Shown here: in pieces, positions 35,032 through 49,525 of the stretch
How the letters are laid out: every line of letters begins with the position of its first letter
Position numbering within the stretch: the stretch's first letter is position 1
NCBI GenBank assembly: GCA_025350815.1
Contig: JANXXE010000218.1
Location: 19,574 to 83,573, forward strand
Length of the DNA: 64,000 nucleotides
Direction: 5' to 3'
From: Myxococcales bacterium
GTDB taxonomy: Bacteria; Myxococcota_A; Polyangia; Fen-1088
Made by a program: the position numbers and the translations under genes
Notes under the pieces: model-generated
The model's input: only the letters and a program-made list of their open reading frames with translations
Told to the model about the DNA's origin: nothing
Database searches by the model: none

Positions 35032-37322
35032 TTGTCCTCCTGAAGCAATGCGTGGAAGTCGTCGTCGATGGCCTTCAGCTCCTGCTTTTGCTGCGTGATG
35101 AGCTGCGTGAGCTTGGAGGTCTTTTGATCCTTGAGACCCCAGGAGACGTCGATAAGACCGACGTCAGACTGCACAACAAGATCGTAGAAGCGGTCGGTCA
35201 CTTTGCCGAGGACTGCCTGCGCGAGGCCACCGCCAAGAGCCTGCGATTCGCCCAGCAGCGATGAGAAGCGACCCGTCGCCGCCTGGATCTGAATCTTCTC
35301 GGCCGCGAGTCGTTCTTTGATCGAACCAAGGCGGCGCTCGGCTGCGGCATCGACGCGACCGTCGAAGTTCTGAAGCTGTGACTGCACAAGTGACGCTCGG
35401 GTGATCACGCCGGCGAGTGCATCGAACTCGCCACGCGCTTCGGGGCTCATCTTGTTGCGGACCTTCTGGTAGATCTCGTATTCGCGACCCATCACGGACG
35501 CCAGTCGTCCGGCCGCGTTGCGCTCTCCATCGGCGGTCACCGAGCCAGCCAGGCGAGTGGCCTCCAGCACCTCCTCGTGGATCCGGTCGTGCGCTCCCCG
35601 CAGAGCTGCGATCGAAGCCCGCAATTCGGCCACCGGACGCTTGAGCTCCTCGGGCCGAATCTTCTGTTCGGTTTTCGAATTGCTGTAGTACTGCTCGACG
35701 GCGATCAGTTCCGCCTCCATGGTCTGGATCGCGACATAAGACTCGGCAAGACGTGTCTGAAATTCCTGAATTTGGTTGCGCGCCACGTCCTCGCGGTTGC
35801 GGCTGTCTCCCTCTGCGGAAGGCAGGGTCTCGATTTGCTGTTCCAGGCGGGCGCGATCAAAACCCATTTCGTCCAGGGCCACGGTTTCGGTGGACGACAG
35901 GTGGGGTGCGGCCAGGCTTCGGGCGCGTTCCAGGAACCTGCGCCTGATGTCCAGGGCCTGGCTCAAAACCTCGTTTGATCGAGATCGCGCGGCTGCCAAA
36001 TCGGGAAAGATCGCGATCTTTCCTTCGCCGTTTACGACCCGCTCCAGCCGACCGATGGTTTGCTCGGTCTCCCGGATGCCGCGTTGAAGTTCGCCCACCT
36101 CACTGGCCAGGTTGACCATGCGGGTTAAATCGGGATCAGCCTTGAGCCATCTGACCGCCACCGGCGGTACGAACAAGGCGATGTCGAATCGTTCGAGACC
36201 CTTGCCGATCAGGGACTCGAAGTAGTGGGGTTCCGACTGTGACCGGGCAAGCGCGGACTTGAGTTGGGTGTGAATGGGCTCGAATTCCTCACGGGCCGAG
36301 CCAAAGATTTCGTTGGCCTGGAAATAGTTGTTGATACGCAGGTTAAGGTTGCCCATCAGGAGCCGCAGTTCCGGGGCTTCGGGACTGTTGGGGCTTTGCA
36401 GGAGCATGAGGTCGAGCGCGCGGTAGGCGGCCTTGTAATCCTTGGCCTTGATGGAGTTCCAGGCCGATTCGTACATCGCGTCAGCGAAGTACTTGGATTG
36501 GCGGCTTATGGCGGAATAGAGGTCCTTGGCCTTGTCGGCTTGGCCGCGTTCGTAAAGGAGGCGGGCGATGGCAAGACGGGCCAGATCCTGAATGTCATTG
36601 TCAGCGTCGCTGCGCGGCTGGACTTTGAGAACGGCGTCGAATCCCGTAGCGGCAGCGGCCAGATTGCCCTTCTTGACCTGGGTCGTGGCGAAGAAGTACA
36701 GCCCCTGCAGGTAATAGGGATTGTCGGTCCCGATGGCGGAAAAAGCCGCCAACGCCTCGTCGGTCCGATCGCGGAAAAAAAGGTACTTGCCCTTGACGTA
36801 CGGAACCGACGGTTCGAGCTGGTTCGACGGAATCTTATCAAGCCGCGCCAAGTATTCCTCGACGTTGTCGTAGTCGCCGGTGCGCAGGGTTAGCTCGACC
36901 AGGCGCTGTAGAGCACTTTGTTCCTTGCGCGAACCGGTGTTCCGCTTGATGGCCTGCTGGAAGTAGGTACGCGCCGAGTTGTAGTCCTTGCTTTGATAGA
37001 GCGACTCACCCAAAAGCACCAACGCGTCATCCGCCGCCCTGGACCCAGGCCATTTCTCCAGCACATCGAGCAGGATGGTCGCGGCGCCCACGTAGTTGCC
37101 CAGGCTGTAGTAGCCTTCAGCCTCGATGACGCGGCGGTCGGGCGCGTTGATGTCCGGCGCCGGCGCGTCCCGTAGCTCAGCCGTGAGCACGCGGACCCGT
37201 TCTTCCAGGTCGATCAGGCTGCGGTTCGCATCATCGATCCTGTCGTCAGCACGACCGCCCCGGACCGGAACGATCAGAAGCGCCAGGACGGCAAGCGCAA
37301 GCTGCCATTTCGTCAGACCCAT
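35028..37322 (-). CDS. TPR-repeat / coiled-coil protein with signal peptide, 764 aa (GltC/NfsC-like)
   Basis: Signal (LALAVLALLIVPVRG), an N-terminal TPR array and a C-terminal long coiled coil. ATGA-coupled to the downstream giant TPR gene. Confidence 0.55.
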   Translation of the reverse strand: MGLTKWQLALAVLALLIVPVRGGRADDRIDDANRSLIDLEERVRVLTAELRDAPAPDINAPDRRVIEAEGYYSLGNYVGAATILLDVLEKWPGSRAADDALVLLGESLYQSKDYNSARTYFQQAIKRNTGSRKEQSALQRLVELTLRTGDYDNVEEYLARLDKIPSNQLEPSVPYVKGKYLFFRDRTDEALAAFSAIGTDNPYYLQGLYFFATTQVKKGNLAAAATGFDAVLKVQPRSDADNDIQDLARLAIARLLYERGQADKAKDLYSAISRQSKYFADAMYESAWNSIKAKDYKAAYRALDLMLLQSPNSPEAPELRLLMGNLNLRINNYFQANEIFGSAREEFEPIHTQLKSALARSQSEPHYFESLIGKGLERFDIALFVPPVAVRWLKADPDLTRMVNLASEVGELQRGIRETEQTIGRLERVVNGEGKIAIFPDLAAARSRSNEVLSQALDIRRRFLERARSLAAPHLSSTETVALDEMGFDRARLEQQIETLPSAEGDSRNREDVARNQIQEFQTRLAESYVAIQTMEAELIAVEQYYSNSKTEQKIRPEELKRPVAELRASIAALRGAHDRIHEEVLEATRLAGSVTADGERNAAGRLASVMGREYEIYQKVRNKMSPEARGEFDALAGVITRASLVQSQLQNFDGRVDAAAERRLGSIKERLAAEKIQIQAATGRFSSLLGESQALGGGLAQAVLGKVTDRFYDLVVQSDVGLIDVSWGLKDQKTSKLTQLITQQKQELKAIDDDFHALLQEDK

Positions 37323-37341
37323 GCCACGGCCCCAGGCTTTG

Positions 37342-38181
37342 TCACTTCTTGCTGGTACTGGTCGCGGCCCCGCCCTGCGGCGCGAGAACGTTCACGCGAA
37401 ATTCGATATCGGGCTTGTCTTCCATGTTGGTGGCAATGCTGCCTTTTTCGTAGCCAACTGCGGTGACGATCGTGGCCTTACCCTCGCCGGCAATGAACGT
37501 GTGACTGGAGCGTACAGCGAACTTGTAGCCACGGAGATAACTAAACACGCCGAAGCCATTGCCCTGGTACACCAGTTGAACCGTCAGCGTGTGCGAGCCC
37601 GGCTGGATGGCGCCGTTGTACACGTCGAACTCGGTCATCTCGGACAGCTTCCCGGTGTCCTCCGCCTTGGAGAAGATCTGAACCCCATCGAGCGCGTAGA
37701 CGACCTTGATCAGGCGGAACGAATTGCTCATCTCGTTCTTGTGGCGAATCACGCCGCGCGAAGCGCCGATGACACCGCCCAAAACCGTTTCCTTAAGAAC
37801 GTTCAGGCGCAGCTTGGTGCGAAAGACCTGCTCTTTGAGCTCGTTCACGCTGCGCTCAAGGGAACGGAGTCGGATGATGTAGGCACCAGCGTCGCTGCCC
37901 GCCCCGCCGGCGGCAGGCGGCCCCGCGGGTGGCGGGGCCCCGGTGGCAGAAGGTGGCGCAGCGCCGGGCGCCGGACTGGCGGTCGACGGGCCCGGTAGGC
38001 CCGACGGGGTGGCCGGAGCCGCGGCGGCAACCGCAGCAGTGACCGCAGGAGCGGCTCCAGCGGCGGAAGGAACGGCGGGGTTGGCGCCGGTATTGGCCTT
38101 GGGCGCTTGGCCGTAGGCAGTACTGGTGGCACCAAGGACGGTCATCAGTCCCAGCAGCCCCCAGGTTCGCAGCAGTCTCAT
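37342..38181 (-). CDS. secreted protein with Pro/Ala-rich linker and beta-rich C-terminal domain (first gene of operon)
   Basis: Start at the internal Met 38181, preceded by a GAGGGA ribosome-binding site. Signal MRLLRTWGLLGLMTVLGATSTAYGQ, then about 90 aa of P/A-rich sequence, a coiled coil, and a beta-strand-rich domain. Confidence 0.5.
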   Translation of the reverse strand: MRLLRTWGLLGLMTVLGATSTAYGQAPKANTGANPAVPSAAGAAPAVTAAVAAAAPATPSGLPGPSTASPAPGAAPPSATGAPPPAGPPAAGGAGSDAGAYIIRLRSLERSVNELKEQVFRTKLRLNVLKETVLGGVIGASRGVIRHKNEMSNSFRLIKVVYALDGVQIFSKAEDTGKLSEMTEFDVYNGAIQPGSHTLTVQLVYQGNGFGVFSYLRGYKFAVRSSHTFIAGEGKATIVTAVGYEKGSIATNMEDKPDIEFRVNVLAPQGGAATSTSKK

Positions 38182-38247
38182 TATGGCAGCTCCCTCTCGG
38201 CGTCTAGGGGCATATGCCTCGCCCACAGAGTCTTTGTGAACGTCATC

Positions 38248-38277
38248 TGTATACCAGGGGCTTTCAACGCGAGTCAA
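38248..38277 (-). promoter_or_regulatory. candidate sigma70-type promoter of the TPR/Glt-like operon
   Basis: Minus strand reads TTGACT-18 nt-TATACA about 65 nt upstream of the 38181 start codon. It lies in a 275-bp intergenic region of lower GC and overlaps one copy of a duplicated motif. Confidence 0.3.
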
Positions 38278-38456
38278 AAGTTCCATGCACTCGATCCGCC
38301 TGGATCCGCTTGGCACGTGCCCGTCGCCAGGGTCATCTGTATCACGCTGGCTTTCCAGTCAGCTTTGCAGGCCAGCTTTCCAGCTTTCCCAACCCAACCT
38401 TGGACGCGGCAACTTTTCACGAGGCCGGCATCTTATCACAGCTTAAGGGGAATTCT

Positions 38457-39530
<1,074 letters not shown>

Positions 39531-39593
39531 TTACCAGCGCGACCGGACCGACACTGCGGGTCCCTGGCGTCGCACGAGGCTTGCCCCTTCGGG

Positions 39594-39854
39594 CTAGGCC
39601 TCGAGCTTGGCGTCTACTTTGACGGTCTGACGAGCGCCAGAGTGGCCGTAGCGAACCGTCCCCTCTTTGAGCGCGAACAGCGTGAAGTCGCGACCCATGC
39701 CCACGTTCATACCCGGGTGAAACACCGTCCCGACCTGGCGCACCAGGATGTTTCCAGCCAGCACGTGCTCACCGCCGAAACGCTTGACGCCCCGACGCTG
39801 ACCCTGAGAGTCGCGTCCATTGCGGGAACTTCCTTGGCCTTTTTTGTGAGCCAT
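39594..39854 (-). CDS. rpmA: 50S ribosomal protein L27
   Basis: [29 protein letters not shown]... is canonical L27. Confidence 0.95.
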
Positions 39855-39859
39855 GAGCC

Positions 39860-40180
39860 TTAGGCCTTCGCCCCGGAGATGGCCGTGATCTTCAGCGCAG
39901 TGAAGGGCTGACGGTGGCCGGTCTTGCGGCGGTAACTCTTTCGCCGCTTGTATTTGAAGATGATGATCTTCTTGCCCAGGCCCTGTTCCAGGACCTCGGC
40001 CTCGACCTTCATACCCGGGACGTGGGGACGTCCTAGGGTCACGCCACCGCCGTCGTCGGCGAACATAAGTGGGTCAAACGTCAGCTTATCCCCAGCAGAC
40101 GCAGGCAGCTTCTCCACGCGCAGGGTTTCCCCTTCGGCCACGCGGTACTGCTTTCCTCCGGTTTCGATAACGGCATACAT
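39860..40180 (-). CDS. rplU: 50S ribosomal protein L21
   Basis: [25 protein letters not shown]... is canonical L21. The start is taken at the MYAVI Met rather than the upstream in-frame ATG. Confidence 0.9.
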
Positions 40181-40257
40181 GGTTCTTGGCTCCAAGCGAG
40201 TCGGCTAATTTAGAACAGCCTACGTCCCTGTCAAGCACTTCCTGGGAAACTGGGAAA

Positions 40258-40671
40258 CTATCCCTTTCGGGCCCGGGCGCCTGGCTTGGTCTTGGCGGCG
40301 CGGCGGTCGGCGCGGTACTTCGCAATCTGGTCCTTCGCCACACCCTTGTGGCTGCTGCACACCATTCCAAAGATGGGCGCGGCGACATTCTTGCAGCCGG
40401 GGACCGGACAGAATTGCTTGGGTCGCCTTCGCCTCGGTGCGCGGCGCGCTGCCGGAACAGAAACCGCCGATGAAATGCCGGGGCGGTTTTTTGGCGGGCG
40501 ACCACGCCGGCGTGGAAGTCCGAGTGCCCCGCCAGCGCCCAGCGCAGACAGCAGAGCCGCCTGCACCCTTTCAGTGGCCCGTATTTGGACGGCAACTGCA
40601 AGCCGGGTCACGAAACCGTCGACCAGGATTCTTAGATCGGAATTGAGGCCGCCCGCGTTGCGGTTTGTCAT
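40258..40671 (-). CDS. hypothetical small basic protein with AT-hook (RRGRPPK) and C-terminal CxxC..C..H cluster
   Basis: Only the 3' half has high third-position GC. The N-terminal half is doubtful and the true start may be internal. Confidence 0.25.
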   Translation of the reverse strand: MTNRNAGGLNSDLRILVDGFVTRLAVAVQIRATERVQAALLSALGAGGALGLPRRRGRPPKNRPGISSAVSVPAARRAPRRRRPKQFCPVPGCKNVAAPIFGMVCSSHKGVAKDQIAKYRADRRAAKTKPGARARKG

Positions 40672-40839
40672 TGGATGCCCGGGAGAATGGTGCGACTACC
40701 TTTTGAAGTAAAGGCATTTTGCGGACGGGTCGCACTGCTTTTGCTTGACCGCCATCGTTGCGCGAACGATAGATCGGCCTCGGACATGGCTGCCTCAGAG
40801 CAATTGCCCCCGGCGGGCATTTCAAAAGTCGTTTCGAAC

Positions 40840-42942
40840 ATGAACGGTGGAGATCTGCGCGCCCAGCTTTCCCGTTATTCCGATATCGCCTTGGCGGCGC
40901 TGGTCGTTGGCATCGTCGGGATGATGATCATTCCGCTGCCGACCTTCTTGCTGGATCTGTTGATTTCTCTGAACATCGCCGTTTCCGTCACGTTGCTGCT
41001 TATTGCCATTTACGTGAGCGATGCGCTGAAGATAGCCACGTTCCCGTCGCTGTTGCTTATTACGACCTTGTTTCGCCTGGCACTGGAGGTGTCCGCGACG
41101 CGGCTGATCCTTCTGAAGGCCGATGGGGGCGAGGTCATTCACGCCTTCGGCAATTTTGTCGTTGCCGGAAATCTGGTCGTCGGTGGGGTTATCTTCTTTA
41201 TCTTGACGATCATCCAATTCGTGGTGATTTCGAAAGGCGCCGAACGCGTGGCCGAGGTCGGGGCGCGCTTCACCCTGGATGCGATGCCCGGAAAGCAGAT
41301 GTCCATCGACGCGGAGCTGCGCGGGGGGCACATCGACCACCACGAGGCGCGGCGGCGGCGGGCCCTGTTGACGCGAGAATCGCAATTCTTTGGCGCCATG
41401 GACGGCGCGATGAAGTTCGTGAAGGGCGATGCGATCGCCGGCGTGGTGGTGTTGGTCACCAATATCGTGGGCGGCCTGATCATTGGTATGGTTCAGCGCG
41501 GCCTGGACGCGGGCGCCGCTGCGCGGACGTATACCGTGTTGACGATCGGCGAAGGCCTGGTCGCGCAGATTCCGGCACTTATCATCTCGACCGCGGCCGG
41601 TATTATTGTCACGCGCGTGTCGTCGGAGGAGGAAGGCGGACATCTGGGCCGGGACATCGGCCTGCAGATCCTTGGCCAACCGAAGGCGCTGGGGATCGCA
41701 GGAGCCCTGTTGTTGGCAATGGCACTGGTGCCGGGTCTTCCCACTGTGCCGTTTCTGTTGCTGGGGCTGGTCCTGTGTTTTGTGGCTTATCAACTGCCGA
41801 CCCTGGGCCGAGACCCGTCGTCAGCCACTTCGGACGATACGTCACAGGGTGGCGCCGCCGCCCGCGGCCCTGCGACGCGCGATGGGGCAGCGGGCCGGTC
41901 AGAAGCGCTACCCTTGCTGGCGCCCATCGCGATCGAACTGGCCGGCCCCCTGGCGGACGAGGTACTGGCGGGCGCAGGCGGGGCACGTCTGTTGCGCGAG
42001 GTCATTCCGGCGCTGCGCGAGCGATACTTTGCCGAGACCGGTATCGTCCTGCCTGCGGTCAGACTGCGACCCATCGTTGGTGCGCTGAACGACGGTGGCT
42101 TCGTGATTCGTCTGAACGAGGTGCCGATGGCCAGGGGCGAGGTCGTCCCGGGTGGGGGGCTGACCTTCGAAACCCCCGCGCGGTTGGCGGCAGCGAACGT
42201 GCCGTCGAGGACCACCGTGTATCCGGACGGGACGGCGGCAGCGTGGATTGCACGGGAAGATCTGGCGGCGGCGCGGGTGAACGGCATCGCGGTCCTCGGG
42301 ACTGAGGAATTCATCGCCGCCCATTTGTTGCAACTGGTGCGGCGTTACGGCCATGAGTTCGTCGGCGTCCAGGAAGCGCAGGCTTTGCTCGACGGGATCG
42401 AAAAGACCCAGCCGGCCCTGGTACGGGAAGTCGTTCCCAAGCTGGTCTCGCCCATCTTGCTGGCCGATGTCTTGCGGCGCCTTGCCGAGGAGCGCGTGTC
42501 GCTGCGCGACCTGCGAGAGATTCTGGGGGCGCTGGCGCAATGGGCACCGCACGAACGAGATCCGGTGGCGCTGACGGAACACGTGCGGGCGGCTTTGCGC
42601 AGGCAAATCACCCACCAGTATGCCGGCGCGGCCGGGACGCTGGGGGTGTTCATGCTGGACCCAGTTATCGAGGACACGGTTCGAGAGGCGATTCACAAGA
42701 CGGCCTCGGGAAGTTACCTTGCGCTAGAGCCAGGGCTGGCGCGCGACATCGTAATGGCCGTGCGCCGGGCGATCCCGGCCAGCAACAGCATGCCGGTCCT
42801 GGTGACGAATGCCGACATCCGCCGTTATGTGAAACGCCTGGTCGAAGGTGAGCTGCCCGGCTTGGCCGTGCTGTCGTTCCAGGAGCTGTCGCCCGAGACG
42901 CAGCTGCAGCCTCTGGGCCGGGTCAGCGTCGCGGAGGCGTGA
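40840..42942 (+). CDS. FHIPEP-family export-gate protein (FlhA / SctV homolog)
   Basis: Start at the MNGGDLRAQLSRYSDIALAA Met. Eight TM helices with ...FPSLLLITTLFRLALEVSATRLIL... and the FHIPEP signature GARFTLDAMPGKQMSIDAEL. Large C-terminal cytoplasmic domain. Confidence 0.85.
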   Translation: MNGGDLRAQLSRYSDIALAALVVGIVGMMIIPLPTFLLDLLISLNIAVSVTLLLIAIYVSDALKIATFPSLLLITTLFRLALEVSATRLILLKADGGEVIHAFGNFVVAGNLVVGGVIFFILTIIQFVVISKGAERVAEVGARFTLDAMPGKQMSIDAELRGGHIDHHEARRRRALLTRESQFFGAMDGAMKFVKGDAIAGVVVLVTNIVGGLIIGMVQRGLDAGAAARTYTVLTIGEGLVAQIPALIISTAAGIIVTRVSSEEEGGHLGRDIGLQILGQPKALGIAGALLLAMALVPGLPTVPFLLLGLVLCFVAYQLPTLGRDPSSATSDDTSQGGAAARGPATRDGAAGRSEALPLLAPIAIELAGPLADEVLAGAGGARLLREVIPALRERYFAETGIVLPAVRLRPIVGALNDGGFVIRLNEVPMARGEVVPGGGLTFETPARLAAANVPSRTTVYPDGTAAAWIAREDLAAARVNGIAVLGTEEFIAAHLLQLVRRYGHEFVGVQEAQALLDGIEKTQPALVREVVPKLVSPILLADVLRRLAEERVSLRDLREILGALAQWAPHERDPVALTEHVRAALRRQITHQYAGAAGTLGVFMLDPVIEDTVREAIHKTASGSYLALEPGLARDIVMAVRRAIPASNSMPVLVTNADIRRYVKRLVEGELPGLAVLSFQELSPETQLQPLGRVSVAEA

Positions 42943-42973
42943 CAGCCGTTCACCGGGCGCTATAGTCGCGCGC

Positions 42974-45778
42974 ATGTCGACATCGCGAAGCCGGGGCAGC
43001 GCCCTGTTGCTGTGCACGTTTCTGGCCATGGGCTGCGCCGCAAGCGCGCTGCCCGACAAACCCATCCTCAAGGACTACGAGCTAGCGCAACGGGATTTTC
43101 CCCTCAAAAGCGGTCTGCGGGTTCTGGTCCAGGAAGACCACAGCGCCCCGGTGGTGGTCGTCGCCGCCATGTACGCCGTCGGTAGCACGTCCGACCCCAA
43201 GGGACTGGAAGGTCTGGCCCATTTCATCGAGCACCTGGCGTTCCGTTCGCGCCCCGGCGGCGGCCCCGAGCTGATGCACGTCATCGACCGGATGGGCGGC
43301 TTTCGCAACGCCTTCACCACCCTGGACAAAACTGTCTATTTCACGATGGCCCACAAGGACCATCTGAACGAGCTGATGCAGTTGGAGGCTTGGCGCCTGG
43401 CCCGTACGGTCGATGGCGTGACGCCCGAGGTCTTCGCCACCGAGCGCGAGGTGGTGCGCAACGAGCTGCGCCTGGGCAATGAAACCAATCTGCGCGGCAA
43501 GCTGTTCGACAAGGTGTTGGCGCAGTTGTTTCCCGCCGGGCATCCCTTTTCGCGTCCTGTGATCGGTTCGCACGAATCGCTGTCGGCGGCCAAGTTGGAA
43601 GACGCGCGGGCCTTCATCAAGAAGGACTACACGCCCGACAACTGCACCATCGTGATCTCGGGCGACGTCAACGCCGACGAGGTGCAGAAATTGCTGGGCC
43701 AGTGGCCGGCCGAGATCTTGTTTGGTCCTGCGGGCCCCGACGGCCCGGCTGTACAGCCGCGCCAGCGCTATGGCGAGCGCCCCGTGCCCGCGGTGCCGCC
43801 GCCGGTTAATCGAGCGCTGGTCAAGGACAAGGGACCGATCGAACAGCCGATTCTGGTGCTGGGTTGGTCGGCGCCGGCCGCATACCGCGGCAACGACGAA
43901 CTTTTGAGCTTCGTCTCTACCCGACTGAATCTGGCGCTGCAGGAGGTCTATGCAAACTCGGACATCTATGTCGATGACGATATAGAGAGTGTCGGGGCGT
44001 TTGCCGATCCGCTGGCCGAGGCGACGGTGGTTTATGTGGTGGCGAACCTCAAGCCGGGGGCGGATCCCGAGAAGGCCCGGCAGCGCGTGCTGGACACGCT
44101 GGTCAACGCCTGGACGACCGAGCTTGGCCGTCTGGACGTCGAGGTCACACGGTGGTTTGCGGCCACTGATCTGTTGCTGGCGGTGGCCGAACCTTTCGAC
44201 AAGGCCGTGTCGCTGGTGCAGCACCTGGGGGCGACGGGCCACCCGGCCTTCTTCAAGGATTCACTGGAAGGCCTGGCCGCCGTGAAGAATTCGCAGGTGA
44301 TGGAATTCGCAGCCAAGTGGATCACGCGCGAGCGCGCCGTGGCCGTGTACTTCGAGCCCGAATCGGATTTCGTGCCCAAAGTAGTAGGCGGGTCGGGCGC
44401 GGCCAGGGCGCCAGCTAAAACAGGCGCCAGCACCGCCGAACACCAGATCGGCGGCGAACAGGCGACGGTGACCGAGGATCTGGGCGCCGACAAGATTCGC
44501 CTGGTGACGCCGTCGCCGGATCTGGCGCGATTTCCTTCCTTCAAGTTGACCAATGGTCTGGAGGTCTTTGCCATCCCACACGGGCTGGCGCCGGTCGCCC
44601 AGATTCACCTGGGTATTCGCGGCGGCAATGCGACGGTCAAACCGTTTGGCCTGGCGGGCCTGGCCAGCAATCTGTCGCGCAGCATGTGTCGCGAGCATGG
44701 GTCGTTGCTTGCCGTGGGCGGGCGCATGGGCTCGTTCACGGGACTGACCCGCAGCACCCACCGGGTCAACGTCATGTCCGGCAACCTGGCCAACGGCCTG
44801 GCGGTGCTGGGCGATCAGGTTCGGTGTCAGGAGGTCAGCGAGGAGTCTTTTTTGTTTCTCGGACGCATTCTTGAGATCAACAAGAAGGCCTACGACCGCA
44901 TCGCGAAGAAGCCGGAATTCGTCGCCAGCAAGCGTTTCTGGGCCGAGCTTTATCCGGGGCACGCCTACGGCGAGCTGGCGATGAACCCCGAAGCGCTGAA
45001 GGGCGTGACCCGCGAGGAGGCGGCGGCGTACGTCAGCAGCCACTACAAGCCCGAGAACGCCGTGGCGGTGGTGACCGGCGACGTCGAGGCCGGCGAGGTC
45101 AAGGCGCTGGCCGAGCGCTACCTGGCGACGTGGAAGAGCGGCGGTGGCGGGTCGGCGGCGGTGGCCGCAATTCCCCCTGGGCCGGCCGGCCGCAAGGTGT
45201 TCTTGATTGAACGACCGAAGGCCACGCAGGCCACGATCCAGATTGGCTGCCGGATTCCTGCCTTGCGGCCAGAATGGCTGCCCGCGCACGACGTGCTGGA
45301 AGCGATGGCCAACGATCACGCCTGGAAGCTGCGCGAACAGCTGGGCGCCACGTACGGAATCTACGCGGGGATCACGGGACACCCGGGCGGGGCGGCCGAC
45401 CTTACGTTCGGGGGCGCCGTCGTGAACCCGCTGGTTGGCGAGGTGGTGGCGAAGCTTCTGGGGTTCATCGAAGACGCCGAACGCGGGCACCTGGACGAAG
45501 GGTGGTTTCTCAGCCAGCGCTGGGACGTGGCGAGAAAATTCGCACTGACCTTTGCCACCAGCGACGGGATTGCATCGGGCATATTGCAGGCCGCCGACCT
45601 GGGATTCGCCCCGGATGTCTGGAACCAGTACCCGGACAACCTGGCGAAGACCACGCGTGAAACCCTGGCAAGTGTGGTTGCGGGGTGCGCCGGCAAGGAG
45701 ATTGTGACCGTCGTCGGCGATCCCGTCGTGATCCGGCCGCAACTGGAGAAGGCCGGATTGAAGCTGGAGACGGAGTGA
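42974..45778 (+). CDS. M16-family zinc metallopeptidase (pitrilysin-like, tandem M16 units), lipoprotein signal
   Basis: Signal LLLCTFLAMGCAAS. Inverted zinc motif HFIEH...E in the first unit. A second inactive-type M16 pair follows. Confidence 0.8.
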   Translation: MSTSRSRGSALLLCTFLAMGCAASALPDKPILKDYELAQRDFPLKSGLRVLVQEDHSAPVVVVAAMYAVGSTSDPKGLEGLAHFIEHLAFRSRPGGGPELMHVIDRMGGFRNAFTTLDKTVYFTMAHKDHLNELMQLEAWRLARTVDGVTPEVFATEREVVRNELRLGNETNLRGKLFDKVLAQLFPAGHPFSRPVIGSHESLSAAKLEDARAFIKKDYTPDNCTIVISGDVNADEVQKLLGQWPAEILFGPAGPDGPAVQPRQRYGERPVPAVPPPVNRALVKDKGPIEQPILVLGWSAPAAYRGNDELLSFVSTRLNLALQEVYANSDIYVDDDIESVGAFADPLAEATVVYVVANLKPGADPEKARQRVLDTLVNAWTTELGRLDVEVTRWFAATDLLLAVAEPFDKAVSLVQHLGATGHPAFFKDSLEGLAAVKNSQVMEFAAKWITRERAVAVYFEPESDFVPKVVGGSGAARAPAKTGASTAEHQIGGEQATVTEDLGADKIRLVTPSPDLARFPSFKLTNGLEVFAIPHGLAPVAQIHLGIRGGNATVKPFGLAGLASNLSRSMCREHGSLLAVGGRMGSFTGLTRSTHRVNVMSGNLANGLAVLGDQVRCQEVSEESFLFLGRILEINKKAYDRIAKKPEFVASKRFWAELYPGHAYGELAMNPEALKGVTREEAAAYVSSHYKPENAVAVVTGDVEAGEVKALAERYLATWKSGGGGSAAVAAIPPGPAGRKVFLIERPKATQATIQIGCRIPALRPEWLPAHDVLEAMANDHAWKLREQLGATYGIYAGITGHPGGAADLTFGGAVVNPLVGEVVAKLLGFIEDAERGHLDEGWFLSQRWDVARKFALTFATSDGIASGILQAADLGFAPDVWNQYPDNLAKTTRETLASVVAGCAGKEIVTVVGDPVVIRPQLEKAGLKLETE

Positions 45779-47013
45779 GCGCGCCGATCCCGCCGTCGAA
45801 GGACGCGCGGCGAGGCATCACGCTGGCGGTGATCGTCGCGGCATTGGGATATTTCGTCGACATTTACGACCTGCTGCTGTTCAGCATCGTGCGCATCAAA
45901 AGCCTGCAGAGCCTGGGCCTGTCCGGAACCGATTTGCTGGAAAAGGGCGGGCAGATCTTGAACTGGCAAATGGCCGGCATGCTTCTTGGGGGCGTGCTGT
46001 GGGGCATGATCGGCGACAAGCGGGGGCGGCTGTCGGTGCTGTTCGGGTCGATCATCCTGTACTCGACGGCCAACATTGCGAACGGGTTGATCCACAGCTT
46101 CGAGGCATATCGAACGGTGCGATTTGTCGCGGGCATCGGTCTTGCCGGGGAACTGGGCGCCGGGATCACGCTGGTCAGCGAGTTGATGACGAAGGAGTCG
46201 CGCGGCTACGGCACCGCGATCGTCGCGACGGTCGGAATTTTGGGCGCCATCGCCGCGTCATTGGTAACCGATCTTGTCCCGTGGCGAACCGCTTACTTTA
46301 TCGGCGGCGGCCTTGGCGTCGCGCTGTTGCTGCTGCGGGTGGGCGTGATGGAATCCGGAATCTTCGAGCAGGTGAAGCTTCAGGCCGTGGCCCGGGGCAA
46401 CTTCTTCAGTCTGTTTGCCACGCGCGCGCGGGCGCGGCGTTATCTGGGCGTGATCCTGATTGGCGTGCCCATCTGGTACGTGATCGCGATCCTGATTTCC
46501 TTTTCGCCTGAACTGGGCAAGGCGATGGGCATGAAGGAGATCCCCAGCGCCTCCCGGGCCGTGCTGTTTTCGTATACGGGCCTGGCCTTCGGTGACATCG
46601 GCAGCGGTTTGCTGAGCCAGCTGTTTCATTCGCGCAAGAAGATTGTCGGGGTCTTCATCTTTTTGACCGCGCTGTTTGTCGCCGCGTATTTTCTGGTCGC
46701 CGCCTCGTCGCTGACGGCGTTCTATTCCGTCTGCGTGGGCCTGGGCGTGGCGACAGGCTACTGGGCCGTCTTCGTGACCACCGCCAGCGAGCAGTTCGGA
46801 ACCAACATTCGCGCCACTGTCACGACGACGGCACCCAACTTTGTTCGGGGCGCGGTGGTTCCGATGAACCTGGCCTTTCAGGCGGGCAAGGCCACGCTGG
46901 GCGTGACCGGCAGCGCGATGCTGGTGGGGGCAGTGACAATCGTCATGGCAGCCCTGGCCCTGACGGCGTTTGACGACACCTACGGCAAGGATCTGAACTT
47001 TCTGGAATCGTGA
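45775..47013 (+). CDS. MFS transporter
   Basis: GTG at 45775 gives a GTGA overlap. Twelve predicted TM helices. MFS motif A-like GDKRGRL between TM2 and TM3. Confidence 0.75.
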   Translation: MSAPIPPSKDARRGITLAVIVAALGYFVDIYDLLLFSIVRIKSLQSLGLSGTDLLEKGGQILNWQMAGMLLGGVLWGMIGDKRGRLSVLFGSIILYSTANIANGLIHSFEAYRTVRFVAGIGLAGELGAGITLVSELMTKESRGYGTAIVATVGILGAIAASLVTDLVPWRTAYFIGGGLGVALLLLRVGVMESGIFEQVKLQAVARGNFFSLFATRARARRYLGVILIGVPIWYVIAILISFSPELGKAMGMKEIPSASRAVLFSYTGLAFGDIGSGLLSQLFHSRKKIVGVFIFLTALFVAAYFLVAASSLTAFYSVCVGLGVATGYWAVFVTTASEQFGTNIRATVTTTAPNFVRGAVVPMNLAFQAGKATLGVTGSAMLVGAVTIVMAALALTAFDDTYGKDLNFLES

Positions 47014-47014
47014 T

Positions 47015-47947
47015 TCAGGCGTCCGCGGCCGCGACACTGAGATAGCGCTCGCCGGTATCGGCCAGCACCGTGACGACGGCCTGGTCGGGTCGCAGGCTAG
47101 CGGCGATGTCCAGCGCCACCTTCACGGACGCCCCCGACGAGATGCCAACCAGCAGGCCCTCGCGGCGGGCAAGCGCGGCGCGCGTGCTTTGCGCGTCCGA
47201 CTCGCTGACGGAACGCACCTGGGACAGGATTGACCGGTCGAGAAGCTCGGGCACGAAGCCCGCGCCAATGCCCTGGATGAGATGCGGGCCGGGCGAGCCA
47301 CCCTGAAGGACGGCGCTGCGTTCGGGCTCGACCGCGACCAGCCGCACGTTTGCATTCGCCGCGCGCAGGCACCGACCCACGCCCGTGATCGTGCCGCCCG
47401 TTCCCACGCCGGCGACGAAGACATCGGGTGCGTGCCCGCCGAGCTGTTCCAGGATTTCGGGGCCGGTGCGCCTCTGGTGCGCCAGCGCGTTCGTGGGATT
47501 GCGGAACTGCTGCGGCATGAAGGCGCCCGGCAGACGTGCCGCCAATGCCGACGCGGCATCGACCGCACCCCGCATCACGGCGGCCGCCGGCGTCAGGTGA
47601 ATTTCCGCCCCGTACGCCCGCAGCAGGGTCAGGCGCTCGCTCGACATGTTGTCGGGCATGGTGAGAATCAGGCGATAGCCCTTCACTGCACACACCAGGG
47701 CCAAGCCGACGCCCGTGTTGCCGGACGTGGCCTCGACAACGACGGATTCGCCCCGGTGCAGCCGTCCGTCCCGTTCGGCCTCGTCGATCATCGCAAGCGC
47801 GACCCGATCTTTGAGCGAGCCGCCCGGATTGAGGTGCTCGCACTTGACGAAGACAGCGGCCCCTTGCGCGCGGGGCAGACGGCCGAGCCGAACGAGCGGC
47901 GTGCGCCCAATGCGGGCCAGGATGTCGTGGTCAGATCGAATAGTCAC
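47015..47947 (-). CDS. cysteine synthase (CysK/CysM, PLP fold type II)
   Basis: IGRTPLVRL...NPGGSLKDRVALAMI (PLP lysine motif)...ATSGNTGVGLA. The probable GTG start at 47947 overlaps the end of the upstream ATPase gene. Confidence 0.85.
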   Translation of the reverse strand: MTIRSDHDILARIGRTPLVRLGRLPRAQGAAVFVKCEHLNPGGSLKDRVALAMIDEAERDGRLHRGESVVVEATSGNTGVGLALVCAVKGYRLILTMPDNMSSERLTLLRAYGAEIHLTPAAAVMRGAVDAASALAARLPGAFMPQQFRNPTNALAHQRRTGPEILEQLGGHAPDVFVAGVGTGGTITGVGRCLRAANANVRLVAVEPERSAVLQGGSPGPHLIQGIGAGFVPELLDRSILSQVRSVSESDAQSTRAALARREGLLVGISSGASVKVALDIAASLRPDQAVVTVLADTGERYLSVAAADA

Positions 47948-49073
47948 CGACAAAGATCTTGGCCCCTTGCAGATCCGCCAGCACGCGATCGCCTTCGACG
48001 ATGCCAAGCGCGGCTATTTCCGCCTTGCCGAGTTCGACGACCAGAGTGCCGCCATCGGGCAGGCGCAAGGTCACCTTGACGTAGGCGCCCATCAGCGCCA
48101 GTCGTTCGACGCGGGCCACGGAAACCGCCGGGGCCTCGTCCTCGGCCTTGGTCAGCTTCACGTCGTGGGGACGGACGAAGCCGTGGACTTCGGCGCCCTC
48201 TTCGGGTTTCTCGCCCTGCGGGACCGCCACCGCGAAGGCGCCAACGGTCGCGCGGCCGTCCCGGATGTGTCCACGCAAAAGGTTGGCGCCGCCCACGAAT
48301 GAGGCCACGAACGGGGACGCCGGGCGATCGTAAATCTCCTGCGGGGCGCCCATCTGGGCCACCTTGCCTTCGTTCATGACCACGACGCAGTCGGATAGTT
48401 CCATCGCTTCTTCCTGGTCGTGCGTGACCAGCAAGGTGGTGACCGGGGCGACGCCCGGCGCGTGGGCCCGCTCTTCATGAAAGCGCCGCAGCCACTGGCG
48501 CAGCGACAATCGGACCTGCGCGTCAAGCGCGCCGAACGGCTCGTCGAGAAGCAGAATCTTCGGCGCAATGGCCAGGGCCCGGGCAAACGCCACACGCTGG
48601 CGCTGGCCGCCCGACAGCTGCCCGGGATAGCGATCACCGTAGCCGGCGAGTTCCACCGCGGTCAGAAGGTCGTCGACCTGACGATTGATTTCCGCTTGCG
48701 GCACCTTGCGGACCTTCAGCCCAAACGCGATGTTGCGGCGAACGGTCATGTGCGGGAACAGCGCGTAGCTTTGAAAAACAAAACCCACGCCCCGCTTCTG
48801 CGGTGAAAGGGTGGTCCCTTCGACGCCGCCGATGACGATGCGACCCGCGTCAGGGTGTTCAAGTCCGGCTATCAGCCGCAAAATGGTGGACTTTCCGGAG
48901 CCCGAAGGGCCGAGCAGCGTCGTGATGGTGCCAACGGGAATCGAGAACGACACGCCGTTCACGGCCGCCACGTCGCCCCCCGCAAAACGCTTGGTCAGGC
49001 CTTCGACCGACAGGCCGTGACCAGCGGCCGCGGCTGTGGGTTGAATCTGGGGGGTCGCGCCGCCACCGTTCAT
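47931..49073 (-). CDS. ABC transporter ATP-binding protein with C-terminal TOBE domain (CysA/ModC family)
   Basis: Start at the MNGGGATPQ Met forms an ATGA overlap with the rrf2 stop. Walker A GPSGSGKST, signature LSGGQRQR, Walker B LLLDEP. OB-fold tail. Confidence 0.6.
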   Translation of the reverse strand: MNGGGATPQIQPTAAAAGHGLSVEGLTKRFAGGDVAAVNGVSFSIPVGTITTLLGPSGSGKSTILRLIAGLEHPDAGRIVIGGVEGTTLSPQKRGVGFVFQSYALFPHMTVRRNIAFGLKVRKVPQAEINRQVDDLLTAVELAGYGDRYPGQLSGGQRQRVAFARALAIAPKILLLDEPFGALDAQVRLSLRQWLRRFHEERAHAPGVAPVTTLLVTHDQEEAMELSDCVVVMNEGKVAQMGAPQEIYDRPASPFVASFVGGANLLRGHIRDGRATVGAFAVAVPQGEKPEEGAEVHGFVRPHDVKLTKAEDEAPAVSVARVERLALMGAYVKVTLRLPDGGTLVVELGKAEIAALGIVEGDRVLADLQGAKIFVGDYSI

Positions 49074-49525
49074 ATGAAGTACATCTGGGCCGCAGGCGTC
49101 GGCGAGATGCGGTCGAGCCCCATGGCCTCGGCCCGCGCGACGAGATCCCTGAGCGTGATCCCGTTGTAGAGATCGACGACGCGGCCGACCAGATCGCCCC
49201 ACACGCTGCCGGGAACGTCGGTCTTGGCGGCCGTGCCCGCACTGTCGAGCGCAAACAGCGTCTCGATCGGGCCATCGACCGCGGTGATGACGTCGCTGAG
49301 GCGAATCGCTTCGGGCGGCTGGCAAAGAGTGTAACCCCCGCGCGGGCCGCGCTTGGCGTCCACGATCTTCGCGCGACGCAGGTCCTGAAGGATCTGTTCG
49401 AGGTAACGAAGTGGGATCGACTGACGATCGGCTATTTCCTTGGCCCCCACCGCGCGGCCGGGGCAATGAAAAGCCATGTCGAACAGGGCGTGCAATCCGT
49501 ATCCAGTCTTTGTGGTAATTCGCAC
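49070..49525 (-). CDS. Rrf2-family transcriptional regulator (IscR/CymR-like)
   Basis: MRITTKTGYGLHALFDMA... with a helix-turn-helix. A single Cys means it may not bind an Fe-S cluster. Confidence 0.75.
   Translation of the reverse strand: MRITTKTGYGLHALFDMAFHCPGRAVGAKEIADRQSIPLRYLEQILQDLRRAKIVDAKRGPRGGYTLCQPPEAIRLSDVITAVDGPIETLFALDSAGTAAKTDVPGSVWGDLVGRVVDLYNGITLRDLVARAEAMGLDRISPTPAAQMYFI

What the first reader, a model, noticed from the sequence alone, without database searches (positions are those of the whole stretch)
40840..42942. Solitary FHIPEP (FlhA/SctV) export-gate gene with no other flagellar or T3SS genes in 64 kb
A full-length FlhA/SctV homolog with eight TM helices and a large cytoplasmic domain lies between the rplU operon and an M16 peptidase. 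The window contains no FliPQR/FlhB, no ATPase and no needle or rod genes. Either the organism has a flagellum or injectisome whose genes are scattered, or this is an orphan export-gate homolog retained for another function.
Basis: partly seen in the sequence, partly recalled or inferred. Interest (0 to 1): 0.6.

Follow-up and report, generated by a model that had tools for sequence, protein, structure and literature searches.

The report
Lone SctV of a split secretion gate
An uncultured soil myxobacterium (class Polyangia) carries an intact type III secretion gate protein (SctV) alone among housekeeping genes, and the other gate subunits (FliO, SctR, SctS, SctT, SctU) probably lie in a separate small operon elsewhere in the genome, giving a stripped-down secretion core with no needle, motor or ATPase genes found near either half.

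Summary
Window 40840-42942 (+) encodes a full-length, eight-TM FHIPEP protein. No other flagellar or T3SS gene is detectable in the 64 kb.

It is a non-flagellar SctV, not FlhA. It passes the SctV equivalog cut-off and fails FlhA's, and it falls in the NF-T3SS clade with bootstrap 100.

The solitary state is inherited, not accidental. More than 120 relatives (60-71 % identity) exist in soil and peat metagenomes and in MAGs, a few of them labelled Polyangia. About 20 sampled loci, several of them redundant, show SctV alone. In the window's clade the synteny is constant: obg-rpmA-rplU-small AT-hook gene | sctV | proABC.

The protein is under normal constraint. It keeps 97 % of canonical invariant columns, including the putative equivalents of FlhA's charged cluster. 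Its cytoplasmic/TM conservation ratio equals that of working systems.

I also found the complementary half. A SctV-less operon, rpoA-rplQ-FliO-SctR-S-T-(4 extra genes)-SctU-priA, occurs in more than 80 high-GC loci with the same genome signature (the window's best tetranucleotide match). No ATPase, C-ring or ring gene lies near either half.

Best reading: a split, reduced "export-gate-only" derivative of the myxobacterial needle-less T3SS. Presence of both halves in one genome is inferred, not shown.

The parts
40840..42942 (+). sctV: non-flagellar T3SS export-gate subunit (FHIPEP family), 700 aa. In-frame alternative starts lie at 40786 (718 aa, the database call) and 40675.
   Evidence: Pfam FHIPEP 745 bits. 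TIGR01399 SctV 782.8 bits against a cut-off of 692. FlhA TIGR01398 650 bits against a cut-off of 772.
40840..41829 (+). N-terminal membrane domain (aa 1-330) with eight hydrophobic segments. It includes the conserved cytoplasmic 'FHIPEP' loop and the charged residues R136, R143, D147, K192 and D197.
   Evidence: hydropathy; all five residues lie in columns >=93 % conserved among 72 canonical FHIPEPs. The equivalence to Salmonella FlhA R147/R154/D158/K203/D208 is my inference from the motif, using an offset of +11.
41830..42000 (+). Low-complexity Gly/Ala/Ser/Pro linker (aa 331-387) between the membrane and cytoplasmic domains.
   Evidence: Linker identity within the clade is 0.41, against 0.82 for the TM domain and 0.65 for the cytoplasmic domain.
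42001..42942 (+). Cytoplasmic ring-forming domain (aa 388-700), aligned along its whole length to solved SctV/FlhA cytoplasmic domains.
   Evidence: 7ALW, 6WA6, 7QIJ, 7OSL and others; constraint equal to canonical systems.
40258..40671 (-). Divergently transcribed 137-aa basic protein with an AT-hook-like RRGRPPK motif and a CPVPGC...C..HK motif. It is a conserved neighbour of sctV in the window's clade, may be DNA-binding or regulatory, and matches no family.
   Evidence: no Pfam hit; conserved in L001, L041, L082, L172-L178 and L180-L182, but not in L003 or clade 2.
40672..40839 (.). Divergent intergenic region between the small gene and sctV; presumed promoter region.
   Evidence: No convincing sigma-70 consensus was found here, so the function is inferred from position only.
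38457..40195 (-). rplU-rpmA-obg: the housekeeping synteny anchor that accompanies sctV throughout the clade. This is context only, not a functional part.

Best explanation
The gene encodes a functional non-flagellar SctV. SctV is the nonameric, proton-motive-force-coupled subunit of the type III export gate. In this uncultured Polyangia lineage the gene has been inherited vertically as a single gene next to rplU-rpmA-obg.

It most likely works with the other gate subunits (FliO as assembly factor, then SctR, SctS, SctT and SctU). These are encoded in a separate compact operon just downstream of rpoA-rplQ. Together they would form a reduced, needle-less 'export-gate-only' machine derived from the myxobacterial NF-T3SS. 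It would move a single class of substrates across the inner membrane using PMF.

Shown here: the identity, intactness and constraint of SctV; its conserved solitary synteny; and the existence, conservation and SctV-less nature of the complementary operon in the same kind of genomes.

Inferred: that both halves sit in the same genome; that they assemble together; that no ATPase, ring or needle exists elsewhere; and what is exported.
For: 1. Identity. SctV equivalog above cut-off, FlhA below. NF-T3SS clade bootstrap 100 in an 82-protein tree. Best PDB match is full-length SctV 7ALW.

2. Constraint. The window clade keeps 97.4 % of 88 canonical near-invariant columns (canonical mean 98.2 %), including R136, R143, D147, K192 and D197, which I take to be the equivalents of FlhA's charged cluster. 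The cytoplasmic/TM identity ratio is 0.75-0.80, against 0.76-0.79 for flagellar FlhA and 0.77-0.82 for other SctV.

3. Stable solitary state. At least 120 database clusters have 60-71 % identity. The same neighbourhood appears on a 728-kb JGI contig, in two MAGs (GCA_003161935.1 and GCA_003158735.1) and in Logan contigs. No T3SS reference hits 288 kb from 20 solitary loci, several of them redundant copies of one locus.

4. The complement. The operon rpoA-rplQ-FliO-SctR-S-T-(x184-x315-x141-x252)-SctU-NTP transferase-PriA appears in L087 (whose SctR NCBI names from a Polyangia MAG), L089 (GCA_031431215.1), L170/L171 and 80 metagenome loci. None of them has a hit to FHIPEP, SctN, L, O, Q or J.

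5. Matching phylogeny. The operon's SctR forms a clade (bootstrap 100) inside the NF-type SctR clade (bootstrap 100). It groups, at bootstrap 51, with the Archangium 'Myxo' SctR and the SctRs of L084-L086 and L088; the Archangium protein is the closest outside the operon clade (60 % identity to L087's SctR). This mirrors SctV. L089's SctR passes the SctR equivalog cut-off.

6. Matching genome signature. The window's best tetranucleotide match of all loci is L089 (r = 0.967). L081 matches L087 at 0.988. The MAG-derived SctV loci L172, L174 and L041 match operon loci at about 0.96-0.98. GC-matched SctV-versus-operon correlations (0.938) are close to SctV-versus-SctV (0.946) and exceed SctV-versus-control (0.879).

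7. Established knowledge. SctRSTU without SctV is inactive, and so is SctV without SctRSTU. The gate can export without the ATPase (PMC4230889, listed; its abstract reports flagella forming without the ATPase, and the rest is my own knowledge of the paper).
Against: No single assembly or contig was shown to carry both halves. Contig-length fingerprints, accession numbers and sample identifiers did not coincide. The window's own assembly is not indexed.

Tetranucleotide similarity shows relatedness of lineages, not co-residence.

The well-conserved cytoplasmic domain of SctV usually serves the ATPase stalk, gatekeeper and chaperones, and none of these was found. Either more components exist elsewhere, or the domain has other partners.

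Lower-GC relatives have larger SctV-less clusters: L084 has SctJ and SctQ, and L086 has SctJ, SctL, SctN, SctO and SctQ. The true partner set could therefore be larger than the compact operon.
Confidence: 0.62

Rival explanations
1. True orphan. The genome has no SctRSTU, and SctV has been kept for a T3SS-independent role, for example as a PMF- or ion-conducting membrane protein, a regulator, or a partner of another envelope machine.
For: No T3SS gene lies within 64 kb of the window or within about 10 kb (less where contigs are short) in about 20 related loci. Published comparative genomics reports the T3SS mainly in the order Myxococcales rather than Polyangiales, Nannocystales or Haliangiales (PMC10196010). 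All eight solitary sequences share a D-to-E change at window residue 159 that the operon-encoded Myxo SctVs lack. Same-genome co-occurrence with SctRSTU is unproven.
Against: Every feature known to serve gate function is conserved at canonical levels, including the whole cytoplasmic ring domain. A perfectly complementary SctV-less operon exists in MAGs and metagenomes of the same kind, a few labelled Polyangia, with the same genome signature, and that operon itself needs a SctV. A KEGG-based survey reports both SctV and SctR orthologs in Polyangia (PMC11509652).
Confidence: 0.2
2. Scattered but fuller system. SctV belongs to a larger needle-less Myxo-type T3SS* (with ATPase SctN/L/O, SctJ and SctQ) whose cluster elsewhere in the genome simply lacks sctV.
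For: SctV-less clusters with SctJ and SctQ (L084), or with SctJ, SctL, SctN, SctO and SctQ (L086), exist. The conserved cytoplasmic domain of SctV suggests cytoplasmic partners. Chlamydiales show that working NF-T3SSs can be split over several loci (PMC3459982).
Against: L084 and L086 have 51-53 % GC, unlike the window lineage at 63-71 %. The high-GC loci with the window's genome signature carry only FliO-R-S-T-(4 extra genes)-U embedded in housekeeping genes, with no ATPase, SctJ or SctQ hit in 80 loci. Their SctU has lost the canonical NPTH switch motif.
Confidence: 0.13
3. Decaying relic or assembly artefact. The gene is a pseudogenising remnant of a lost T3SS, or a mis-binned or chimeric fragment.
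For: The L041 ortholog looked fragmented into three frames.
Against: L041's breaks coincide with 35 Ns, a scaffold gap. The gene is an intact ORF in all other loci examined and full length (>=640 aa) in all 120 database relatives. Synteny is conserved on contigs up to 728 kb; a relative in a different gene context also sits alone on a 2.1-Mb contig. Conservation is at canonical levels. G+C and GC3 are typical of the surrounding genes.
Confidence: 0.02
4. Flagellar FlhA of a flagellated organism whose other flagellar genes lie elsewhere.
For: Some database records name relatives 'flagellar biosynthesis protein FlhA'. Flagellar-type FlhA clusters do occur in some 'delta'/Myxococcota MAGs (L023, L028, L049, L080).
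Against: The FlhA equivalog score is below its cut-off while SctV's is above. The NF clade has bootstrap 100. Those flagellar loci are in a different part of the tree and are conventionally clustered.
Confidence: 0.01

Closest known systems
'Myxo' NF-T3SS / needle-less T3SS* of Myxococcus and other Cystobacterineae (Abby & Rocha 2012, PMC3459982; Thiery et al. 2022, as cited in PMC12403147 and PMC10196010)
   Same: It is myxobacterial, non-flagellar, has no secretin or needle, and includes FliO. Archangium operon L002 (SctP-like, SctQ, FliO, SctR, SctT, SctU, TPR, SctV) is the nearest clustered relative: SctV 51 % identity, and the partner SctR of L087 60 %. The NPDH variant of the SctU cleavage motif is shared with L002.
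   Different: In the Myxo system sctV is inside the operon, together with the ATPase, SctJ, the inner rod and SctQ. Here sctV is alone, the presumed partner operon holds only FliO-R-S-T-U, both halves sit among housekeeping genes, and the lineage is Polyangia rather than Cystobacterineae. Sister-group support is weak for SctV (bootstrap 32-60) and modest for SctR (51).
'CORE' complex FliO/P/Q/R-FlhB-FlhA proposed as a nanotube platform, with CORE-only genomes noted (Bhattacharya et al. 2019, PMC6456723)
   Same: The protein set is exactly the same six proteins. The paper already notes bacteria (Myxococci, Chloracidobacterium, Succinatimonas) that keep CORE genes while lacking most flagellum or injectisome genes.
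   Different: Their Myxococci example is the clustered Myxo T3SS. The split arrangement found here (solitary sctV plus the rplQ-linked operon) in Polyangia was not described in the papers I could search. The nanotube role is untested here, and from my own knowledge it is debated.
Flagellar-T3SS-like genes of the non-flagellated predator Lysobacter enzymogenes OH11 (PMC7277350)
   Same: A non-flagellated soil predator that retains export-apparatus homologs which are functional for export and linked to surface motility.
   Different: The Lysobacter set is flagellar-type and includes the FliI ATPase. Here the type is non-flagellar and no ATPase was found.
Chlamydial scattered NF-T3SS (PMC3459982) and, from my own knowledge, chlamydial orphan flagellar homologs FlhA/FliI/FliF
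   Same: A precedent for a working T3SS split over several loci, and for stray FHIPEP paralogs outside any flagellar cluster.
   Different: In my own chlamydial loci (L005, L011) sctV still sits next to sctU, and the chlamydial system is a complete injectisome.

Membership tests
FHIPEP / SctV (non-flagellar T3SS export-gate subunit) | Full-length FHIPEP domain | tested here: met
   PF00771, 745 bits, model positions 1-656 of 657.
FHIPEP / SctV (non-flagellar T3SS export-gate subunit) | Scores above the curated SctV equivalog cut-off and better than FlhA | tested here: met
   TIGR01399 782.8 bits against 692.25. TIGR01398 FlhA 650.1 bits against 772.1.
FHIPEP / SctV (non-flagellar T3SS export-gate subunit) | Eight-TM N-terminal domain, linker, and four-subdomain cytoplasmic domain | tested here: met
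   Hydropathy scan. End-to-end alignment to full-length SctV 7ALW and to the cytoplasmic-domain structures 6WA6, 7QIJ, 7OSL and 2X49. No 3-D model was built.
FHIPEP / SctV (non-flagellar T3SS export-gate subunit) | Conserved charged cluster of the membrane domain and loop (FlhA R147, R154, D158, K203, D208) | tested here: met
   R136, R143, D147, K192 and D197 all lie in columns >=93 % conserved in 72 canonical proteins. The residue equivalence is my inference from the motif.
FHIPEP / SctV (non-flagellar T3SS export-gate subunit) | Phylogenetic placement among NF-T3SS SctV proteins | tested here: met
   Neighbour-joining tree of 82 FHIPEPs; the NF clade that includes the window has bootstrap 100.
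FHIPEP / SctV (non-flagellar T3SS export-gate subunit) | Encoded in a locus with other T3SS genes (SctU, R, S, T, N and others) | tested here: not met
   None in 64 kb, and none in about 20 related loci.
FHIPEP / SctV (non-flagellar T3SS export-gate subunit) | SctRSTU present in the same genome, with SctV assembling as a nonamer around them | not testable with these tools
Only circumstantial support exists: the complementary operon in related genomes.
Flagellar FlhA | FlhA equivalog score above cut-off, flagellar clade, flagellar gene neighbourhood | tested here: not met
   650 bits, below the 772 cut-off. The protein lies outside the flagellar part of the tree. There are no flagellar genes nearby.
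'Myxo' NF-T3SS / T3SS* (Abby & Rocha 2012) | Conserved locus with export apparatus, ATPase, SctJ and inner rod, and no secretin or needle | tested here: not met
   The locus organisation is absent here. The ATPase and SctJ references give no hit near either half. The genome-wide state is unknown.
'Myxo' NF-T3SS / T3SS* (Abby & Rocha 2012) | SctV monophyletic with the Myxo-locus SctVs | tested here: inconclusive
   It groups with L002 and L021, but bootstrap is only 32-60. The partner SctR groups with L002 and L084-L086/L088 at bootstrap 51.
CORE-only set (FliO, FliP, FliQ, FliR, FlhB, FlhA; Bhattacharya 2019) | All six genes in one genome that lacks the rest of the flagellum or injectisome | tested here: inconclusive
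   SctV is here. The other five are in an operon in related MAGs and metagenomes. Same-genome presence, and genome-wide absence of other parts, were not shown.
CORE-only set (FliO, FliP, FliQ, FliR, FlhB, FlhA; Bhattacharya 2019) | Nucleates intercellular nanotubes | not testable with these tools
   This is an experimental phenotype.

The most novel reading that the evidence does not exclude
A large, uncultured soil and peat lineage of Polyangia has reduced the type III machine to its bare membrane gate. That gate is FliO-SctR-S-T-U, fixed behind the rpoA-rplQ operon, plus a separately encoded SctV fixed beside rplU-rpmA-obg. There would be no ATPase, C-ring, MS/SctJ ring, rod, needle or secretin anywhere in the genome, and the SctU substrate switch would be lost. 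The gate would work on its own as a PMF-driven inner-membrane protein exporter, or as a 'CORE' platform. It would be a living example of the minimal export engine postulated at the root of flagella and injectisomes.
Probability: 0.3. Interest if true: 0.8.

Novelty: new variant of a known kind. Interest (0 to 1): 0.6.

Why it matters
All well-studied T3SSs embed the five-protein export gate in a large scaffold of rings, an ATPase and a sorting platform. Whether the gate can live and work alone in nature is an open point. It bears on how flagella and injectisomes arose, and on the disputed 'CORE/nanotube' idea.

A vertically inherited gate-only gene set would make that question testable in a natural system. 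Here the set is split into two housekeeping-embedded loci, kept under canonical constraint across a widespread soil lineage, and has a degenerate SctU switch.

There is also a practical point. Cluster-based tools such as TXSScan-type rules that need several co-localised core genes, and KEGG module completeness, will report these genomes as 'no T3SS' or 'degenerate'. That is how the literature currently describes Polyangia.

Tried and rejected
1. Finding the window's genome. The exact-protein look-up for SctV found nothing. The look-up for L27 found only three short Logan contigs.

2. Contig-length 'fingerprints' linking SctV and SctR hits. The first SctR search was saturated by Myxococcia at >=75 % identity. 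The second, with P0253, gave Polyangia-type SctRs but no coincident contig.

3. Sequential NCBI accessions to pair proteins of one MAG. Accessions were absent for almost all members.

4. Sample overlap between SctV P0068 (8 assemblies or MAGs) and SctR P0436/P0452. There was none.

5. L084, L085 and L086 as partners. Rejected for this lineage on G+C, 51-55 % against 63-71 %.

6. L041 as evidence of pseudogenisation. Rejected, because the breaks coincide with a 35-N scaffold gap.

7. M16 peptidase as a functional partner. Rejected. It is adjacent only in the window: in relatives proA follows sctV, and the window's 42.8-55.4 kb block of M16, MFS and sulfur-assimilation genes is an insertion relative to L082 and L172.

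8. L003's 138-aa upstream ORF as an ortholog of the AT-hook gene. Rejected by alignment.

9. I did not pursue profile searches for the four accessory genes of the long operon variant (x184, x315, x141, x252), and I built no 3-D models.
Full report
**Observation.**
The window has an ORF at 40675-42942 on the + strand. The identical database protein P0001 was called as 718 aa, which I compute to correspond to a start at 40786.

Pfam FHIPEP matches essentially the whole model at 745 bits. NCBIfam places the protein above the curated cut-off of the SctV equivalog (TIGR01399, 782.8 against 692) and below that of FlhA (TIGR01398, 650 against 772). A hydropathy scan shows hydrophobic segments between residues 16 and 315 that I read as eight TM helices; TM2 is merged into one run with TM1. 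The protein aligns from residue 10 to 697 with the full-length SctV cryo-EM structure 7ALW.

I called genes by GC3 bias and scanned about 55 plausible ORFs with Pfam. The window holds these blocks:
- a polysaccharide cluster (1-26 kb);
- a minus-strand cluster of TPR and unknown proteins (26-38 kb);
- obg-rpmA-rplU;
- a 137-aa unknown gene;
- sctV;
- an M16 peptidase, an MFS transporter and sulfur-assimilation genes;
- proline-biosynthesis genes;
- a caspase-like protein.

No flagellar or T3SS family other than FHIPEP appears. tblastn with labelled T3SS components from related loci also finds nothing.

**What kind of FHIPEP it is.**
I extracted FHIPEP proteins from 80 genome loci found with the window protein and from further loci. 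A neighbour-joining tree of 82 proteins puts the window inside the non-flagellar (SctV) half, with bootstrap 100. It falls in a group of Myxococcota sequences.

That group contains two kinds of gene. The first kind is SctVs embedded in operons, such as L002 from an Archangium MAG. Pfam labels L002's operon as SctP/FliK-like, SctQ, FliO, SctR, SctT, SctU, a TPR protein and SctV. This corresponds to the 'Myxo' NF-T3SS of Abby & Rocha (PMC3459982). The second kind is solitary SctVs:
- the window clade (window, L001, L081, L082; bootstrap 100);
- L003;
- a second clade of Polyangiaceae MAGs (L014, L016, L018; bootstrap 100).

Relationships among these subgroups are poorly resolved (bootstrap 32-60).

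**The solitary state is conserved.**
The protein database holds at least 120 clusters with 60-71 % identity. Most come from soil and peat metagenomes, and a few are named 'Polyangia bacterium'.

On a 728-kb JGI contig (L082) the neighbourhood is TPR-TPR-unknown-obg-rpmA-rplU-hisD-small gene | sctV | proA-proB-proC...caspase. The window shows the same order, with an extra block (M16 to sulfite reductase, 42.8-55.4 kb) inserted after sctV. The same order recurs in two MAGs (GCA_003161935.1 and GCA_003158735.1) and in several ENA assemblies. It also recurs in Logan contigs that carry the window's own L27.

A 2.1-Mb contig (L081) and the second clade have different neighbours: FIST, Ddl, PP2C and TPR proteins. 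They too have no T3SS genes. tblastn of all my T3SS references against 288 kb from 20 solitary loci, several of them redundant copies of one locus, hits only SctV and the small neighbour gene. The one ortholog that looked broken (L041) spans a 35-N scaffold gap.

**Is it still a working gate subunit?**
Among 72 canonical FlhA/SctV proteins, 88 alignment columns are at least 93 % conserved. The window clade keeps 97.4 % of them, against a canonical mean of 98.2 % and a minimum of 88.6 %. The window itself differs at three columns (A96G, D159E, Y421F), all conservative.

The retained columns include R136, R143, D147, K192 and D197. By motif and a constant offset of +11 I take these to be the equivalents of Salmonella FlhA R147, R154, D158, K203 and D208. 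That equivalence is my inference from memory of the FlhA literature.

Across 120 clade members, mean identity is 0.82 in the membrane domain and 0.65 in the cytoplasmic domain, a ratio of 0.80. At matched divergence the ratio is 0.75. The flagellar set gives 0.76-0.79 and other injectisome SctVs give 0.77-0.82. There is therefore no relaxation of the ring domain that faces cytoplasmic partners. A decaying relic is excluded, and a radically repurposed protein is unlikely.

**Searching for the partners.**
A first search with the Archangium SctR was swamped by Myxococcia. An exhaustive search against 50 %-identity representatives, followed by context look-ups, showed T3SS gene sets that lack sctV:
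- L084: SctU, SctJ, SctQ, FliO, SctR, SctS, SctT;
- L085: a lone FliO-FliP pair;
- L086: SctJ, SctL, SctN, SctO, SctQ, FliO, SctR, SctS, SctT.

These loci have only 51-55 % G+C, so I do not assign them to the window lineage.

A search with a high-GC-like SctR (P0253) returned proteins named 'Polyangia bacterium' or 'Myxococcota bacterium'. Their contexts were decisive:
- L087 (its SctR is named by NCBI as from a Polyangia MAG; 71.5 % GC) has rpoA-rplQ ... FliO-SctR-SctS-SctT-x184-x315-x141-x252-SctU-NTP transferase-PriA.
- L089 (GCA_031431215.1, 65 % GC) has the compact form, FliO-SctR-SctS-SctT-SctU, placed directly after the ribosomal spc/alpha operon.
- L170 and L171 repeat the compact form.
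- L088 carries a lone SctR.

A metagenome scan with a FliO alignment specific to this clade returned 80 further loci with the same order. Counting those 80 together with L087-L089, tblastn gave these hits: FliO 82, SctR 68, SctS 58, SctT 48, SctU 32, rplQ 58, rpoA 44 and PriA 17 loci. The FHIPEP, SctN, SctL, SctO, SctQ and SctJ references hit none.

The operon's SctR forms a clade (bootstrap 100) within the NF-type SctR clade (bootstrap 100). It groups, at bootstrap 51, with the Archangium protein and the SctRs of L084-L086 and L088. The Archangium protein is the closest outside the operon clade, at 60 % identity to L087's SctR. L089's SctR passes the SctR equivalog cut-off and not FliP's. FliO passes its cut-off. 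SctS, SctT and SctU are divergent.

The canonical N/PTH autocleavage motif of SctU/FlhB is changed. It is NPDH in Archangium and in part of the operon clade, and degenerate (DGGR, DDDR, APDR, GAGD) in the rest. From established knowledge, loss of cleavage abolishes substrate-class switching. That fits a machine with no needle or hook to measure.

**Are the two halves in the same genomes?**
I could not show this directly. Contig-length coincidences, accession numbers and sample identifiers gave nothing, and the window's assembly is not indexed.

The indirect evidence is consistent:
- Both gene sets occur in records labelled Polyangia and in soil and peat metagenomes.
- Each set lacks exactly what the other has.
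- Both are nearest to the Myxo NF-T3SS.
- Tetranucleotide signatures interleave. The window's best match among all loci is operon locus L089 (r = 0.967, marginally above its own clade-mate L082 at 0.965). L081 matches L087 at 0.988. The MAG-derived SctV loci L172, L174 and L041 match operon loci at about 0.96-0.98.
- GC-matched SctV-to-operon correlations (0.938) are close to SctV-to-SctV (0.946) and exceed correlations with high-GC controls from other phyla (0.879).

This shows that the two locus types come from the same or closely related lineages. It does not show co-residence.

**Mechanism proposed.**
SctV would form its usual ring around an SctR5S4T1-SctU core whose assembly FliO assists. 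It would use the proton-motive force to move unfolded substrates across the inner membrane.

Two points from the literature make such a reduced machine plausible. Export-gate assembly independent of the other injectisome parts is suggested by the title of Diepold et al. 2011, seen only as a reference in PMC11509652. ATPase-independent export rests on PMC4230889, of which I saw only the listing and the start of the abstract, plus my own knowledge.

What it exports, and whether envelope proteins provide an outer conduit, is unknown. Candidates are the four accessory genes of the long operon variant: a lipoprotein, a Pro-rich beta-barrel-like protein, a small polytopic membrane protein and a Met-rich secreted protein. 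The conserved divergent AT-hook/Cys-motif gene next to sctV may regulate it; this is inferred from position only.

**Comparison with what is known.**
- The nearest system is the needle-less Myxo T3SS/T3SS* of Cystobacterineae. The present case differs in lineage, in being split, and in lacking the ATPase, SctJ, rod and SctQ genes near either half.
- The six-protein set equals the 'CORE' of Bhattacharya et al. 2019 (PMC6456723). That paper already notes CORE-retaining bacteria that lack the rest of the organelle.
- Lysobacter enzymogenes shows that a non-flagellated predator can keep a working export apparatus for another purpose.
- Comparative papers describe the T3SS as existing mainly in the order Myxococcales (PMC10196010), or report substantial T3SS homolog sets only in Myxococcaceae bins (PMC11821767). 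One KEGG survey mentions SctV and SctR orthologs in Polyangia (PMC11509652).
- I found no description of the split arrangement in the library I could search.

**Verdict.**
The gene is a bona fide member of the SctV family. The arrangement is a new variant of a known kind: a probable split, gate-only derivative of the myxobacterial NF-T3SS. I put 0.62 on the split-gate explanation, 0.20 on a true orphan, 0.13 on a fuller scattered T3SS*, and little on the rest. Interest is 0.6. The finding is solid and phylogenetically broad, and it touches an open question about the autonomy and origin of the export gate. The decisive genome-wide check has not been done.

Noticed in passing
window 26386-38316 (minus strand): This is a seven-gene envelope cluster: a 324-aa secreted Pro/Ala-rich protein, TPR proteins of 764, 1188 and 417 aa, and unknowns of 472, 215 and 444 aa. 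It gives weak NCBIfam matches to gliding-motility GltC, GltE and GltG, and an AgmX/PglI C-terminal domain above cut-off. G+C drops to about 0.61 here. The cluster looks like a Glt/Nfs-type machine and is syntenic with L082 and L172.
   Followed up: partly
L087:2936-7566 (also L108): Six to seven tandem paralogous genes of about 185 aa lie divergently upstream of the FliO operon. Each has a lipobox-like N-terminus, hydrophobic segments and a conserved IYNA.PPPGCGPP C-terminus, and a 236-aa unknown gene accompanies them. No Pfam hit is on record. They could be substrates or envelope parts of the reduced system.
   Followed up: no
L087:9976-12745 and 19 other loci (L098, L108, L123, L128, L135, L147, L150, L155, L160, L161, L164 and others): The long variant of the FliO-SctRSTU operon carries four conserved extra genes between sctT and sctU. 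They are a lipoprotein (x184), a Pro-rich protein with a beta-barrel-like C-terminus (x315), a small polytopic membrane protein (x141) and a Met-rich secreted protein (x252). None has a Pfam family on record.
   Followed up: partly
L089:11782-12909, L087:12770-13873, L002:6156-7211, L096, L113, L123, L129: The SctU/FlhB autocleavage motif NPTH is NPDH in the Archangium Myxo T3SS and in part of the Polyangia-type operon clade. It is fully degenerate (DGGR, DDDR, APDR, GAGD) in other members. L002 also has a separate 92-aa FlhB-C-terminal-domain gene just after sctU.
   Followed up: partly
L088:10001-10678 (JGI 168-kb contig, 72 % GC) and L085:9691-10783 (55 % GC): Export-gate genes are scattered even further in other lineages. 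L088 has a lone SctR between sspB and an HTH regulator. L085 has a lone FliO-FliP pair followed by an Ion_trans/TrkA-type channel gene.
   Followed up: no
L084 (JGI 79.5-kb contig, 51 % GC) and L086 (53 % GC): These are larger T3SS clusters that also lack an adjacent sctV. L084 has SctU, SctJ, SctQ, FliO, SctR, SctS and SctT. L086 has SctJ, SctL, SctN, SctO, SctQ, FliO, SctR, SctS and SctT, with no SctU or SctV in the following 4.5 kb. Detachment of sctV therefore appears to be recurrent in relatives of the Myxo system.
   Followed up: partly
window 42848-55400: The block of M16 peptidase (lipoprotein-like signal from Met 42974), MFS transporter, CysK-like PALP enzyme, CysA, Rrf2, sirohaem synthesis genes and sulfite reductase is absent between sctV and proA in the syntenic relatives L082 and L172. 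It is therefore a lineage-specific insertion next to sctV. A sigma-70-like site at 42939-42966 precedes the M16 gene.
   Followed up: partly
L023, L028, L049, L080 ('delta proteobacterium' / Myxococcota MAGs): These loci have conventional flagellar-type FliN/M-FliP-FliR-FlhB-FlhA clusters and fall in the flagellar part of the FHIPEP tree. Some MAGs labelled Myxococcota or delta-proteobacteria therefore seem to encode flagella.
   Followed up: no
window residue 159 of SctV (nt 41314-41316) and the equivalent in L001, L003, L014, L016, L018, L081, L082: All eight solitary SctVs have Glu where more than 93 % of canonical FHIPEPs, including the operon-encoded Myxo SctVs, have Asp. The position is the second acidic residue of the ...MSID-x-D/E... 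loop motif. The second solitary clade also lacks a conserved Trp (window W469) and has Y421V.
   Followed up: partly
window 62152-63783 and L082:18134-19642: A caspase-like (Peptidase_C14) protein is conserved in the same neighbourhood, downstream of proC. In L082 it lies next to an ECF sigma factor gene and unknown genes.
   Followed up: no
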